From: a virus
Lineage: Duplodnaviria; Heunggongvirae; Uroviricota; Caudoviricetes
Direction: 5' to 3' (one strand)
DNA: 15,960 bases
Virus record (IMG/VR): IMGVR_UViG_2802429240_000004
Span: 1 to 15,960 of that record
The position numbers and the translations under genes are program-made. Within the stretch, counting starts at the first letter, position 1, and every line of letters starts with the position of its first letter. Shown here in pieces: positions 10,789-14,217 of the stretch. Under the pieces are notes generated by a model, which was given only the letters and a program-made list of their open reading frames with translations, was not told where the DNA came from and did no database searches.

Positions 10789-11454
10789 TCAAACAAACCC
10801 AGCCGCTTTCCGGCGTTCATATTCCTGTTTCAGCAACTCAATTGGAGTTGGCCCCGACGGGCGTTTTGGTGCTACCAGTTGCCGCCGGACGGGCGGAACG
10901 CTGAAGCCGTCACCAACATGCTTTGCCCATTTCGCTAGTTGCCGTTCTGCAAGTCGTTTTAACTCCCCTTCGGTCATCTGACGCTCAATCCCTTTTGCCC
11001 GCATCTCGAGGCAAATGTGATACAGCACGGGCTGAGACCACGGGTATTTATCGCTCCCGTCGTATCGCCAGGACTCGTTGCGCCAGCGGCGGTACTCCTC
11101 CATCACGGCATCCACAGTCAAACCAAACGGATTTGCCCCACTTTCCGAAATCAACGCCACAAACTCAGCCAGGTCAGGAGGCCATGTTTCACCCGCCCGA
11201 CAACGCTCCATGCACTGGCGGCAGACCTGCCGGATTTGCTGCTCAGTCATCGCGCCAATCTGTGCAATCCAGAGCTTCGAAGGTGCGGCCCCGTTCTTCT
11301 GGGTCCAGCGGTTCGAATAAACCTCCCCCATGAGTTCCCACAGCTTCCACGCCGTTTCCGTCGCTGATAAATCCGTTTTCACGTTCCCACTGCTCACGTG
11401 CTGCCCGAATTTCCTGAACTGCCCGTGATGCGGTGCCACCTGGCGTTGCTGCAT
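10789..11454 (-). CDS. Replication protein P-like (helicase loader)
   Basis: Alignable by eye to lambda P: [40 protein letters not shown] versus lambda YPWKSNAHYWLVTNLYQNMRANALTDAELRRKAADELVHM; also [12 protein letters not shown] versus TTMEQVNAGMRVARRQ. AAGGGGGTGA lies upstream of the ATG at 11454. Confidence 0.7.
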
Positions 11455-12367
11455 GGTTCACCCCCTTGCTGACTGGTTTAACCTGCGCCCTGACGTGATT
11501 TACGTGACGGGCGAATTTCTGCTCCCACTGAACCTGCGTGAACACTTTGCCCTCCGCTGCCCAGTAGTCCCGGAAGGCGGCAAGTTCAGCTGGTGTAAAT
11601 TCCGGCTCAGGAAGAGCCACGCCCCACAGCGCAGCCCGTCGTCGAAAATCCGGCGACGGATGCCAGCCATCGGTCATCGGAAATTTCCCGATGGGTTCGC
11701 TCAGGCCTTCCAGGTAATCAGGTTCCGCTGTCTGCAACGGCACGCCATTTGCCTCACTGGCCGGAGCACTCTCGCGCACGCGCGCGTTATGTGTGGGGTT
11801 TATATATCTGTTATCTGTTATCTGGATACCGCATGACAAAGCGTTAGCCTTATCCTTAGGCTTATCCTCAGGCAAAGGGATTGCCTTATCGAATGCCATC
11901 CCCAAAGCCTCAGAAACCCCGTAGGACGCGGCTCTCAGCGATTCCCTGGCCTCCCATTTGAGAGGGCAATCAGGAATTAAAGCGAATGCCTTTGCCCAGG
12001 ATTTAATGACATTTATCGAGTTTGGCGGATTGTGTTTCGCAGCATTCGGGAGCCAAAAAACTCTGGCTTTGATATCTGCTTTCACCATGCCAAGATTCAT
12101 GGCTTCGCCTAAGGCTAAGTCAAAGGCTTCGATATCCCACCCCAACTCTTCAGCCATTGCTGCCCGCCCGGCTTTAAACAACCCAGGAATAATCCCGGTA
12201 AATGGACTGGTCAGCAGATAAATAAACAAACTCTGTCCACTTGGAGGCAGAGGAGATAACGCCCTAAATTTGGGATCATCCCATATCGTTATTTTTACCT
12301 TGCGATAAGGCTCATTGTTTGCCTTAGTTTTTGGCATGGGATTTGGCATGTTTTTAGCCTTAACCAT
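11243..12367 (-). CDS. Replication initiator O-like protein with DnaT-like C-terminal domain
   Basis: Internal ATG (GAGG 6 nt upstream) of track ORF 11243..12421. The C-terminal segment [61 protein letters not shown] matches E. coli DnaT ([29 protein letters not shown]...[20 protein letters not shown]). Its last ~70 codons overlap the P-like gene in another frame. Confidence 0.7.
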   Translation of the reverse strand: [374 protein letters not shown]

Positions 12368-12446
12368 AATTGCCTCATCTGGTGTCGAACCTTCCTCCGG
12401 ATATAATCTGTGATTCCCCAATCAACAGAACCAAAGGAGGTTCGAC

Positions 12447-12902
12447 ATGTCTTTAATGGCTGTTTGCCAAAAAATTAAAAATCACATGCGCACTGTGTAC
12501 AAAATTAACCAGCACGACCACGACATGGTTAACCTGGTAACATGCAGGGCTATAGTTCTCACCCGCTTCCATCTACTTCTTACAAATCACTCACGAGATT
12601 CTCTCCTGAGTCCCAGTAACTATGATTCGCTGGCGAGATTGCTATACCAGGCAAGTGAAAAACGTATTACTGATCCCTTATCTGTTTCTCCTGTCCTTGC
12701 TCTTCACATTCTGGAAGACGCTCTCTATGACCCCCATCAGGAATGCGACTATCAATTTCTTGAAGCTGAGAAATCAATGAGAGAATGGTTCGTTGAATAT
12801 CACGAACGGCAGCAAAAGTTATCCTCAAAGTATTCAGAACTTCCGCAACTTCGCTGGAGTGACCTTCCGAACGAATTATTTGCTCTGACCCCAGAAAATT
12901 AA
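12447..12902 (+). CDS. Hypothetical protein (151 aa), AT-rich, antisense to the early-right operon; conflicts with 12667..13080
   Basis: Strong RBS AAAGGAGG 6 nt before the ATG and a perfect TATAAT hexamer about 40 nt upstream (12402-12407). Globular-looking sequence. Overlaps the minus-strand ORF by 236 nt, so at most one of the two is likely real over that stretch. Confidence 0.4.
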   Translation: MSLMAVCQKIKNHMRTVYKINQHDHDMVNLVTCRAIVLTRFHLLLTNHSRDSLLSPSNYDSLARLLYQASEKRITDPLSVSPVLALHILEDALYDPHQECDYQFLEAEKSMREWFVEYHERQQKLSSKYSELPQLRWSDLPNELFALTPEN

Positions 12903-13080
12903 TTCTTGGGGATAAATCGTCCATAACTGAGCGCAGGCTAAGTTCTGCGCTCTGAAGCTTCCGAACCGAAGTTTCTGTACCCCAACCCGCAATTTCTGCA
13001 TTTTTTGCAAGTTTCAGGATCCAGTCTCGTAGTTCGCCGGGAGTAAGATTTCCAGCATTGATAAACGGTTTGATTTTCAT
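12667..13080 (-). CDS. Hypothetical protein (137 aa) following the YdaT-like gene; conflicts with 12447..12902
   Basis: ATG 20 nt after the YdaT-like stop with a weak RBS. The N-terminal 59 codons lie in unique sequence; the remainder overlaps the plus-strand ORF. Confidence 0.3.
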   Translation of the reverse strand: MKIKPFINAGNLTPGELRDWILKLAKNAEIAGWGTETSVRKLQSAELSLRSVMDDLSPRINFLGSEQIIRSEGHSSEVAEVLNTLRITFAAVRDIQRTILSLISQLQEIDSRIPDGGHRERLPECEEQGQEKQIRDQ

Positions 13081-13099
13081 TGTTAGTTACCCTATTCAC

Positions 13100-13522
13100 T
13101 TAATGAACAACAGCAGAATCGTCGGACGACCCACCACCGCTGAAATGCGCTTTCCGGTAAACGGCTTGGACTGCATCATCATGCGCATCAATTGCCGTAC
13201 TCAACGCTTCCTGCGCCGCCAGTAATGCACGGCGTTCCAGGGTATCGAAGATGCTGAATCGGTGGCGCAGCTCGCGCGGAAGGATTGCCAGAATTGCAGG
13301 GATCAGTTTCTGAATTTTTTCCCTTTGCGCTTCCGTTTCACCTTTCAACCAGCGGTGATAGATATTCTGCTGATTGTTCCAGTCCTTGCCTGGTACCAGG
13401 GGTAATTCGCCGCCCCCCTGGCGCAGATATTCTTCAGTAATTGCGTTAGCGACCCACGCCTGCCCTTTTTCGGCTGCCAGGGCTAACAGCACTGATTCGA
13501 TGTGCTCATGCCTGATTTTCAT
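13100..13522 (-). CDS. YdaT-like protein (CII-like regulator family of Rac-type prophages)
   Basis: 140-aa ORF directly after the Cro-like gene (17-nt overlap), AAGGTGA upstream. Begins MKIRHEHI and ends AVVH, matching my recollection of E. coli YdaT; family call by memory and position. Confidence 0.6.
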   Translation of the reverse strand: MKIRHEHIESVLLALAAEKGQAWVANAITEEYLRQGGGELPLVPGKDWNNQQNIYHRWLKGETEAQREKIQKLIPAILAILPRELRHRFSIFDTLERRALLAAQEALSTAIDAHDDAVQAVYRKAHFSGGGSSDDSAVVH

Positions 13523-13733
13523 GAATCACCTTCCCTGCTCGCTTTGCCTTACGATATTCGTCATAAACGTTGGGGTCGTACTGAAGCTCCCCGCCGGATG
13601 CCTCCTGCAGGCGCATCGCGCGGCCTTCAGGAACCAGTTCCCCCCATGCAGCAATGCTTGCCAGCCTCACCCCTGCAGCATTCGCGAGCTTCGTTTTGCT
13701 GCCAAAAAAAGCTATAGCATCGGTTTTCAACAT
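13506..13733 (-). CDS. Cro-like HTH regulator
   Basis: 75-aa ORF divergent from the repressor, AAGGAG 6 nt upstream. DAIAFFGSKTKLANAAGVRLASIAAWGELVPEGRAMRLQEASGGELQYDPNVY parallels lambda Cro ([26 protein letters not shown]...INADGSVYAEEVKPF). Confidence 0.7.
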   Translation of the reverse strand: MLKTDAIAFFGSKTKLANAAGVRLASIAAWGELVPEGRAMRLQEASGGELQYDPNVYDEYRKAKRAGKVIHENQA

Positions 13734-13809: not shown

Positions 13810-14217
13810 ATGAAAAACGAAACCTTCGGTGCCCGCCTCTTACACAGGCGTAAAAAATTAAAACTGTCCCAGGCCGCATTAGGTAAGCTGGTCAAAGTGG
13901 CTCACGTAACAATTTCTCAGTGGGAAAGGGATGAAACACAGCCTGCGGGGAAGAGATTATTCGCGCTGAGTCAGGCACTTCAGTGCTCACCGACCTGGCT
14001 TCTTTTTGGGGATGAAGATAAGCAACCAGGCGAACCGATCCCGGCGAACCAACCAACCAATCTGACAGAAGAGCAAAAAGAGTTACTTCAACTGTTCGAC
14101 GCACTGCCTGAATCAGAGCAAAAAGCTCAATTGTCAGAGATGCGTGCCAGAGTTGAGAATTTCAACAAACTTTTTGAAGAACTACTCAAAGCTCGCAAAA
14201 GAAGCACAAATAAATAA
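13810..14217 (+). CDS. Prophage repressor, HTH_XRE family without peptidase domain (DicA/RacR-like)
   Basis: 135-aa ORF; N-terminal LSQAALGKLVKVAHVTISQWERDETQPAGKRLFALSQALQCSPTWLLFG is a canonical XRE/cI-type HTH. Flanked on both sides by CTTAG-type operator repeats. Confidence 0.8.
   Translation: MKNETFGARLLHRRKKLKLSQAALGKLVKVAHVTISQWERDETQPAGKRLFALSQALQCSPTWLLFGDEDKQPGEPIPANQPTNLTEEQKELLQLFDALPESEQKAQLSEMRARVENFNKLFEELLKARKRSTNK

What the first reader, a model, noticed from the sequence alone, without database searches (positions are those of the whole stretch)
12368..13099. Convergent, mutually overlapping ORFs in an AT-rich block between the YdaT-like and O-like genes
Seen in sequence: a 151-aa plus-strand ORF with a strong AAAGGAGG RBS and an upstream TATAAT hexamer overlaps by 236 nt a 137-aa minus-strand ORF that continues the early-right operon. 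The block is more AT-rich than the neighbouring replication genes. The plus-strand start context (AGGAGGTTCGACATG) closely resembles that of the Cro-like gene (AGGAGTTCGATATG). Inference: one frame is probably a shadow ORF; if the plus-strand gene is real it is an antisense-oriented moron inside the early operon, analogous to rex or sieB-type exclusion genes in lambda. Manual codon-position counts did not discriminate the two.
Basis: partly seen in the sequence, partly recalled or inferred. Interest (0 to 1): 0.45.

Follow-up and report, generated by a model that had tools for sequence, protein, structure and literature searches.

The report
Two real genes overlapping on opposite strands
Neither of the two overlapping reading frames is an artefact: both are conserved prophage genes that have been inherited together, tail-to-tail on opposite DNA strands, across several genera of enteric bacteria, while annotation pipelines routinely report only one of them.

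Summary
In detail: ORF151 (12447-12902, +) and ORF137 (12667-13080, -) overlap by 236 nt in an AT-rich block between the YdaT/CII-like gene and the O-like replication gene.

The inference that one frame is a shadow ORF is not supported. Every ORF151-family relative examined, from 99% identity to barely detectable, has an overlapping convergent ORF137-family frame. In all but one (L008) its N-terminus is homologous too. The non-overlapping parts of both ORFs show coding-type substitution patterns.

In the distal 150 nt of the overlap, synonymous sites of ORF151 are unusually conserved (0.65 vs 0.48, p=5e-4). The minus-frame protein there is twice as conserved as plus-strand constraint alone predicts. 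ORF137 models as a confident three-helix protein with a disordered tail.

ORF151 sits behind a about 70-nt conserved block. That block precedes at least 8 unrelated cargo genes in the same slot, including ECs1072 of O157:H7. It is found in 582 of 5,426 E. coli genomes.

The function of both proteins is unknown. Mutually antagonistic expression, with ORF151 made in the lysogen and ORF137 in the lytic phase, is inferred and not shown.

The parts
12447..12902 (+). ORF151: 151-aa predicted all-helical protein of unknown function, transcribed antisense to the early-right operon
   Evidence: Full-length homologues of 148-162 aa from 99% identity to barely detectable similarity in Salmonella, Serratia, Trabulsiella and metagenomes. 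Codon position 3 is the least conserved position in codons 1-100. No Pfam, NCBIfam, PADLOC or PDB match. The AF2 model is poor, pLDDT 50.
12667..13080 (-). ORF137: third gene of the cro-ydaT operon. Three-helix protein (helices 14-31, 35-64, 72-112) with a disordered tail (113-137)
   Evidence: Matches phrog_37051 at 5.8e-92. PGAP annotates it. It is intact at 129-139 aa in all distant relatives, and its non-overlapping N-terminus is 39-50% identical there. Diverged database homologues P0020-P0034 exist. AF2 pLDDT is 82-94 over residues 41-110. It starts 19 nt after the ydaT stop.
12667..12902 (.). 236-nt antiparallel overlap. Frame relation: plus position 1 pairs with minus position 1, plus 2 with minus 3, plus 3 with minus 2
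   Evidence: Minus-frame stops number 1-8 in plus codons 1-77 (5-8 in eight of nine lineages) and 0 in the rest of the ORF in 8 of 9 lineages.
12747..12902 (.). Doubly constrained core: ORF151 codons 101-151 and ORF137 codons about 60-109. The most conserved motifs of both proteins are encoded here by the same DNA
   Evidence: Synonymous identity is 0.65 against 0.48 in the non-overlap (Mann-Whitney p=5e-4). Minus-frame amino-acid identity is 0.528 against 0.270 +/- 0.018 simulated under plus-only constraint.
12371..12449 (.). Conserved about 70-nt platform block holding three nested helices, a -10-like element, and the SD and ATG of the cargo gene. Its left edge abuts the SD (12373-12376) and ATG (12365-12367) of the O-like gene on the minus strand
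   Evidence: It is nearly invariant where the coding DNA is only about 66% identical. It occurs in 582 E. coli genomes and 74 viral contigs, in front of at least 8 cargo families. The minus-strand RNA fold is more stable in 38 of 41 variants.
12433..12440 (+). Shine-Dalgarno AAAGGAGG of ORF151, forming part of the 3' arm of the block's outer helix
12379..12407 (+). Candidate promoter inside the block: CTGGTG, 17-nt spacer, TATAAT. In cargo-less relatives it reads TTGTGA-16-GATAAT
   Evidence: A TAnnCT/TATAAT element is conserved at this column in the variants read by eye. The transcription start site is not determined.
12343..12370 (+). Alternative, lineage-specific promoter-like site TTGGCA-16-CATAAT, just 5' of the block and overlapping the O-like start codon
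   Evidence: 10 of 12 matches. It is absent upstream of the block in other lineages.
12411..12424 (.). Palindrome TGATT-N4-AATCA at the innermost helix of the block. It has the same half-sites as the YdaT operator-like site at 13512-13529, which has N6 spacing
   Evidence: The published operator is TTGATT-N6-AATCAA (PMC9986795). This is a lead only.
13100..13522 (-). YdaT-family (CII-equivalent) gene immediately upstream of ORF137
   Evidence: PMC9986795
11243..12367 (-). O-like replication initiator with a DnaT domain. Its likely ATG is at 12367, because homology to replication-initiator PHROGs begins at residue 38 of the 392-aa mechanical ORF

Best explanation
Both ORFs are genuine protein-coding genes that form one conserved, co-inherited, convergent overlapping module. 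The module is inserted in the early-right (pR-type) operon between the CII-equivalent ydaT gene and the replication genes. I put this part at about 0.85.

ORF137 is translated from the early lytic transcript (cro-ydaT-orf137). It gives a three-helix protein of about 110 residues plus an unconstrained disordered tail. ORF151 is read from the opposite strand, starting at a conserved about 70-nt platform that supplies a -10-like element and a consensus SD and ATG. Related prophages place unrelated cargo genes, or nothing, behind the same platform, so the slot behaves as a moron site.

Inferred, not shown (about 0.35): the two transcription units collide head-on and share 236 bp, so their expression is mutually antagonistic through transcriptional interference and sense/antisense RNA pairing. 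Under this reading ORF151 is made when pR is repressed (lysogen or establishment) and ORF137 when pR is active (lytic growth). The biochemical function of both proteins is unknown.
For: Homologues of both frames:
- ORF151 has full-length homologues down to 49% identity by single-sequence search and weaker ones by profile search.
- tblastn and HMM scans of 48 loci show that every locus with an ORF151-family gene has an ORF137-family ORF converging on it. Overlaps are 182-272 nt. This holds for L045, where the plus protein is 30% identical to the family, and for L047 and L048. The frame relation (position 1 opposite position 1) was checked in the nine lineages.

Coding signatures:
- ORF137 non-overlapping codons 1-59: identity at codon positions 1/2/3 is 0.525/0.625/0.40.
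- ORF151 codons 1-74: 0.586/0.717/0.465.

Double constraint in the overlap core:
- ORF151 position-3 identity rises to 0.60-0.68.
- Column-wise synonymous identity is 0.65 against 0.48, p=5e-4.
- Minus-frame identity is 0.528 against 0.270 expected. The control region gives 0.256 against 0.175.

Stop avoidance: P(no stop) is 0.02-0.26 per lineage, and no stop is seen in 8 of 9 lineages.

Other support for ORF137:
- AF2 pLDDT is above 82 for residues 41-110, which includes the overlap-encoded helix 3. The tail is disordered, matching its lack of sequence constraint.
- Paralogue P0033 in L045 conserves the same segment without an intact ORF151 partner.
- Good Shine-Dalgarno sequences precede the ORF137 homologues of distant lineages.

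Support for the slot being a moron site: the same platform fronts at least 8 cargo families and also occurs without cargo. ECs1072, a cargo behind the same platform, is on the list of genes whose transcript level changes across growth transitions in O157:H7 Sakai cultures (PMC2241611).
Against: - There are no expression data for either ORF of this module.
- Polymorphism among close relatives (66 sites) does not discriminate the frames inside the overlap.
- The promoter of ORF151 is not pinned down. There are two candidates, and no consensus promoter lies upstream of the block in other lineages.
- No intrinsic terminator was found for the plus transcript.
- No function was found for either protein.
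- The last about 28 codons of ORF137 show no sequence constraint, so part of the overlap may be incidental.
- The lineages are not fully independent, so combined probabilities are approximate.
Confidence: 0.75

Rival explanations
1. Only ORF151 is a gene. ORF137 is a shadow ORF kept open by the amino-acid composition of ORF151.
For: Gene callers on distant relatives call only the plus ORF. The C-terminal half of ORF151 inherently offers few stop-generating dipeptides, with 1.2-2.8 stops expected. The ORF137 tail is unconstrained.
Against: The 59 non-overlapping N-terminal codons of ORF137 are conserved at protein level with a coding pattern, and the start position is conserved. Minus-frame identity in the core is twice the plus-only expectation. 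The AF2 model is confident. Paralogues exist without an intact ORF151 partner. The family has its own PHROG.
Confidence: 0.06
2. Only ORF137 is a gene, as PGAP annotates in E. coli. ORF151 is a chance antisense ORF.
For: RefSeq annotates only the minus ORF here. ORF151 has no PHROG or Pfam family and a poor AF2 model.
Against: 220 nt of ORF151 lie outside the overlap and show a coding pattern. The length of 148-162 aa and the stop position are conserved from close relatives to barely detectable ones. A consensus SD and ATG are invariant. L008 keeps ORF151 although the N-terminus of the partner was replaced.
Confidence: 0.03
3. Both are genes, but the overlap has no regulatory meaning. It is a product of genome compaction and of ORF137 running on until the first stop. 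The two products act independently.
For: The last about 28 codons of ORF137 are unconstrained and disordered. Other cargo genes in the same slot (the 83-aa family) have convergent neighbours without overlap.
Against: The two families were found together in every locus examined, even at the limit of detectable similarity. The constrained core of about 150 nt includes helix 3 of ORF137 and the most conserved motif of each protein. ECs1072-type modules, whose cargo is not detectably homologous, keep the same frame relation and partner type.
Confidence: 0.3
4. The extra conservation in the overlap core reflects an RNA or DNA element, such as a terminator or an antisense pairing site, rather than ORF137 coding.
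For: All three codon positions are conserved there. Convergent transcripts must end or pair somewhere.
Against: No terminator-like site lies in the core and there is no Rfam hit. The minus frame stays open. The segment models as a confident helix. It is conserved as protein in paralogue P0033, which lacks an intact ORF151 partner.
Confidence: 0.08

Closest known systems
Phage morons, such as lambda rexAB and sieB-type genes or HK97-type morons (from my own knowledge of the literature)
   Same: An independently oriented gene sits inside a phage operon. It is AT-richer than its neighbours and has its own SD. Presence and cargo vary among otherwise related prophages.
   Different: The cargo here comes with a conserved partner gene on the other strand that it overlaps. 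No intrinsic terminator was found. The promoter is not established. There is no evidence of an exclusion function.
Lambda cII / oop antisense RNA with the pO promoter (from my own knowledge)
   Same: A transcript is initiated next to the replication gene. It runs antisense to the early-right operon and overlaps the 3' end of the gene that precedes the replication genes.
   Different: The antisense transcript here encodes a conserved 151-aa protein. The overlapped gene is not the CII equivalent; YdaT lies one gene further upstream. There is no sequence or Rfam similarity.
Experimentally proposed antisense overlapping genes of E. coli O157:H7 (for example PMC9927249, seen)
   Same: A long antiparallel overlap of two protein-coding frames in an enterobacterial genome.
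   Different: Here the support is comparative: both partners form families and the overlap is retained across genera. There are no expression data for this pair.
ECs1072 family phage-associated protein (NCBIfam NF033230)
   Same: Same slot, same upstream platform (92.7% identity), same 151-aa length. It is also overlapped, by 317 nt and in the same frame relation, by a convergent ORF with an ORF137-like N-terminal motif (phrog_8304).
   Different: ORF151 is not detectably homologous to ECs1072.

Membership tests
Shadow (artefactual) ORF | The frame is interrupted or lost in diverged relatives, and conservation is no greater than that imposed by the real gene on the other strand | tested here: not met
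   Both frames are intact in all diverged lineages. Minus-frame identity is 0.528 against 0.270 expected. The non-overlapping parts of both show coding patterns.
phrog_37051 (ORF137) | Significant full-length match to the family profile | tested here: met
   E 5.8e-92, residues 1-137 of 137. Distant homologues also match.
ECs1072 family (NF033230) for ORF151 | NCBIfam score of at least 70 bits | tested here: not met
   No hit at E<=1. hhalign probability is 0.1%. The O157 protein itself scores 105.7 bits.
Moron | Variable presence or cargo at a fixed site among related phages, with deviating base composition | tested here: met
   At least 8 cargo families and cargo-less versions occur behind the same block. 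GC is 0.41-0.47 against 0.52-0.63.
Moron | Own promoter and own terminator flanking the gene | tested here: inconclusive
   There are two promoter-like candidates but no TSS data. No plus-strand terminator-like site lies after 12902.
oop-like antisense RNA | Short non-coding RNA ending in an intrinsic terminator, with similarity to the described RNA | tested here: not met
   No Rfam match. The transcript region encodes a conserved protein. No terminator was found.
Known anti-phage defence systems (PADLOC) | Profile match to a defence-system protein | tested here: not met
   Neither window ORF hit any model at E<=1. Two distant minus-ORF homologues gave only weak hits: Type I specificity subunit at E 0.014 and AbiEi at E 0.0027.
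YdaT-controlled promoter (pRE-type) | YdaT operator TTGATT-N6-AATCAA at the promoter | tested here: inconclusive
   The block carries TGATT-N4-AATCA, which has the same half-sites but the wrong spacing. An N6 site with 2 mismatches lies at the cro/ydaT junction, 13512-13529. Binding was not tested.

The most novel reading that the evidence does not exclude
ORF151/ORF137, and the ECs1072/phrog_8304 pair of O157:H7, represent an ancient two-protein prophage module. Its antiparallel overlap is itself the functional device: it forces mutually exclusive expression of a lysogen-state protein and a lytic-state protein, and it guarantees their co-inheritance. The module would be mounted on a conserved platform that also carries a structured RNA acting on the early transcript just ahead of the replication gene.
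Probability: 0.25. Interest if true: 0.75.

Novelty: new variant of a known kind. Interest (0 to 1): 0.6.

Why it matters
Long antiparallel overlaps of two protein-coding genes are regarded as rare and are often doubted in bacteria and phages. Gene finders forbid them by design. Here comparative evidence supports such a pair across genera, and public annotation is demonstrably inconsistent. PGAP calls the minus gene for this module type and the plus gene for the ECs1072 type. Metagenome callers call the plus gene. One phage record calls both.

If the ECs1072 lead holds, some of the 582 E. coli genomes that carry the platform block, including O157:H7 strains, would also carry an unannotated partner gene. 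The shared platform also defines a hot spot for accessory genes in the immunity/replication region. That makes the regulation of such genes experimentally approachable.

Tried and rejected
- Polymorphism among 16 close haplotypes (66 sites) was too sparse to separate the frames in the overlap.
- Pfam, PHROG function, NCBIfam, PADLOC, PDB sequence profiles and Foldseek (PDB, BFVD) gave no functional assignment for either protein.
- The AF2 model of ORF151 was too poor for fold search. The afdb50 library was unavailable.
It was redone with database homologues.
- Rfam found nothing.
- RNAalifold on the MAFFT alignment reported no compensatory pairs, because the arm of L008 was misaligned. Single-sequence folds and 42 variants were used instead.
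- A plus-strand SD-sequestering leader was my first reading of the block. I downgraded it after cargo-less versions appeared and the minus-strand fold proved stronger.
- No consensus promoter was found upstream of the block outside the window's lineage.
- LexA-box and sigma-54 readings of the block were rejected on inspection of the sequence.
- The YdaT-operator resemblance has the wrong spacing, N4 against N6, and is kept only as a lead.

Full report
**Context.** The window carries a lambdoid immunity and replication region with the early-right operon on the minus strand. Its genes are:
- a cI-like repressor, 13810-14217 (+);
- Cro, 13506-13733 (-);
- a YdaT-family gene, 13100-13522 (-). YdaT is described as the functional equivalent of lambda CII (PMC9986795);
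- ORF137, 12667-13080 (-);
- an O-like DnaT-domain replication gene whose likely ATG is at 12367;
- a P-like gene.

**Observation.**
- The two ORFs, their lengths and the 236-nt overlap are as described.
- AAAGGAGG lies at 12433-12440 and TATAAT at 12402-12407.
- GC is 0.41-0.47 in the block, against 0.52-0.63 in the flanks.
- The Cro start context is similar.

**Annotation is inconsistent.**
- RefSeq/PGAP annotates only ORF137 in E. coli relatives and leaves about 500 nt empty.
- A GenBank phage record annotates both ORFs.
- Gene callers on Salmonella, Serratia and metagenome contigs call only ORF151, leaving about 200-280 nt empty.

**Homology.**
- A single-sequence search gave ORF151 full-length 151-aa homologues down to 49% identity. 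The same kind of search gave ORF137 only homologues of 85% identity or more. On its face that favours ORF151.
- That result was misleading. tblastn on the fetched loci showed that every distant ORF151 locus but one also carries an intact 129-139 aa minus ORF. These are 43-48% identical to ORF137 and start at almost the same offset. They include the 59 codons outside the overlap, at 39-50% identity with E 1e-7 to 1e-16. The exception, L008, has a replaced N-terminus and is described below.
- A profile of these sequences retrieved diverged database members P0020-P0034.
- HMM scans extended the pairing to the most distant ORF151-family members.
  - L045: the plus protein is 30% identical to the family and the overlap is 194 nt.
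  - L047: overlap 182 nt, and both genes were called by the source.
  - L048: overlap 272 nt.
- L045 also has a second ORF137 paralogue (P0033) without an intact ORF151 partner.
- L008 keeps ORF151 although the N-terminus of the partner was replaced.

**Tests for dual coding.**
- The frame relation is plus position 1 opposite minus position 1, plus 2 opposite minus 3, and plus 3 opposite minus 2. Selection on one frame alone therefore leaves position 2 of the other frame free to vary.
- Among distant lineages, ORF151 shows position-3 identity of 0.465 in codons 1-74 and 0.34 in codons 75-100. Codons 75-100 lie opposite the ORF137 tail, which is only 27% identical. Position-3 identity rises to 0.60 in codons 101-126 and 0.68 in codons 127-151.
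- ORF137 codons 1-59 give identities of 0.525/0.625/0.40 at positions 1/2/3, which is a coding pattern.
- Column-wise synonymous identity is 0.48 in the non-overlap and 0.65 in the core (Mann-Whitney p=5e-4).
- Minus-frame amino-acid identity opposite plus codons 100-151 is 0.528. The expectation when only the plus protein is held and synonymous codons are redrawn is 0.270 +/- 0.018. The same frame in a control region without an ORF gives 0.256 against 0.175, so residual relatedness explains only part of the excess.
- Minus-frame stops number 1-8 in the first 73-77 plus codons (5-8 in eight of nine lineages) and zero afterwards in 8 of 9 lineages. Synonymous randomisation gives P(no stop) of 0.02-0.26 per lineage.
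- The doubly constrained core is about 12747-12902. There the motif LP(E/Q)LRWSDLPNELF of ORF151 and the motif RINFLxS(D/E)QIIRSxxHS of ORF137 are encoded by the same DNA.

**Structure.**
- ORF137 models as three helices (14-31, 35-64, 72-112). pLDDT is 82-94 for residues 41-110, and the tail 113-137 is disordered. This agrees with the pattern of sequence constraint.
- Fold searches return only generic helical hairpins.
- ORF151 is predicted to be helical, but the model is poor.
- No family or defence-system match exists for either protein.
- The ORF151 family is small: 23 representatives among 1.84 billion proteins.

**The upstream block.**
- The 70 nt before ORF151 are nearly invariant where the coding DNA is about 66% identical.
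- A distant blastn search found the block in 582 of 5,426 complete E. coli genomes. Most hits cover only these about 80 nt.
- The block precedes unrelated cargo genes in the same slot and orientation:
  - ECs1072-family proteins in O157:H7;
  - a 97-aa family;
  - an 83-aa family;
  - BssS-like proteins;
  - several others.
- In L126 and L127 the block lies in the 86-nt spacer between ydaT and the replication gene, with no cargo. There it reads as TTGTGA-16-GATAAT.
- The block folds into three nested helices. Across 42 variants the inner helices change sequence but keep pairing, and L008 shows compensatory changes in the outer helix. This is my reading of the individual folds; the pairs were not counted formally.
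- The minus-strand RNA fold is more stable in 38 of 41 variants, by a mean of 7.35 kcal/mol, and has more G.U pairs. The structure therefore more likely acts in the early-right transcript, directly 5' of the replication gene's SD (12373-12376) and ATG (12365-12367).
- The plus-strand reading, in which the fold sequesters the SD of ORF151, cannot be excluded. It depends on where the transcript starts. The candidates are TTGGCA-16-CATAAT at 12343-12370 and CTGGTG-17-TATAAT at 12379-12407.

**Mechanism.**
- Shown: two conserved coding frames, their co-inheritance, the double constraint, and the shared platform with variable cargo.
- Inferred: ORF137 is translated from the pR-type transcript, since it starts 19 nt after ydaT and distant homologues have good SDs. 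ORF151 is expressed from the platform in the opposite direction. The convergent arrangement would make the two mutually antagonistic.
- ECs1072, behind the same platform, is on the list of genes whose transcript level changes across growth transitions in O157:H7 Sakai cultures (PMC2241611). This indicates that a cargo gene in this slot is transcribed in a lysogen.
- The function of both proteins remains unknown.

**Verdict.** The reading of ORF151 as an antisense moron is supported. The "one frame is a shadow ORF" inference is rejected. This is a well-supported, conserved antiparallel overlapping gene pair, which is a new variant of known kinds (morons, antisense overlapping genes). It has practical consequences for annotation.

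Noticed in passing
window 12371-12449; loci L049-L051, L052-L128: A about 70-nt conserved platform block lies between ydaT or cro and the replication gene. It occurs in 582 of 5,426 E. coli genomes and 74 viral contigs, in front of at least 8 unrelated cargo genes or none. It has nested helices that keep pairing while their sequence changes. Its fold is stronger on the minus (early-operon) strand in 38 of 41 variants. No Rfam family matches it.
   Followed up: partly
L049:2713-3273 (-), E. coli O157:H7 PV15-279; also L058, L062, L112: The ECs1072-family gene of O157:H7 is overlapped by 317 nt by a convergent 170-aa ORF that PGAP does not annotate (phrog_8304). The frame relation is the same as in the window. 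The ORF has an ORF137-like N-terminal motif (hhalign E 3.6e-4). Partner ORFs are conserved in four diverged lineages, and cargo position-3 identity rises from 0.34-0.37 to 0.46 in the last third of the gene.
   Followed up: partly
window 12411-12424 and 13512-13529: TGATT-N4-AATCA in the block has the same half-sites as the YdaT operator-like CTGATT-N6-AATCAC at the cro/ydaT junction. The published operator is TTGATT-N6-AATCAA. YdaT might therefore also bind the platform, but the spacing differs.
   Followed up: partly
window 11243-12421 (-): The start of the O-like replication gene is annotated inconsistently: 304 aa by PGAP in relatives, 374 aa in the phage record, and 392 aa for the mechanical ORF. 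Homology to replication-initiator PHROGs begins at residue 38 of the 392-aa ORF. With the SD GAGG at 12373-12376, this favours the ATG at 12367.
   Followed up: partly
L003 (PP818812.1, 'Actinobacillus phage vB_Apl-pPE4'): This record, attributed to Actinobacillus pleuropneumoniae, is about 97% identical over the 851 nt compared (window 12300-13150) to E. coli lambdoid prophages. The host assignment looks doubtful.
   Followed up: no
window 12929-12952: A perfect 8-bp inverted repeat, GAGCGCAG-N8-CTGCGCTC, lies inside the non-overlapping part of ORF137, just downstream of the ORF151 stop. No T-tract follows it. It could be an end or processing site for the plus transcript.
   Followed up: no
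L045:3001-3748: There is a tandem duplication of the ORF137-family gene. The first copy is opposed only by a 117-aa antisense ORF with a degenerate ORF151-like C-terminus (PVLQRSALLSELSGLMSEN). This suggests that the whole overlapping module was duplicated and one plus copy then decayed.
   Followed up: partly
L052, L075, L079, L090, L092 (97-aa cargo family): The 97-aa cargo gene behind the same platform is almost entirely covered (273 nt) by a conserved-length convergent ORF of 110-117 aa. Whether that ORF is a second case of dual coding or a shadow ORF was not tested.
   Followed up: no
L050:2503-2820: PGAP's 'bssS family protein' starts inside the platform at a non-ATG codon, out of frame with the platform's ATG. 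Intact 83-aa BssS-like cargo genes in L059 and similar loci start at the platform ATG. L050 probably carries a frameshift.
   Followed up: no
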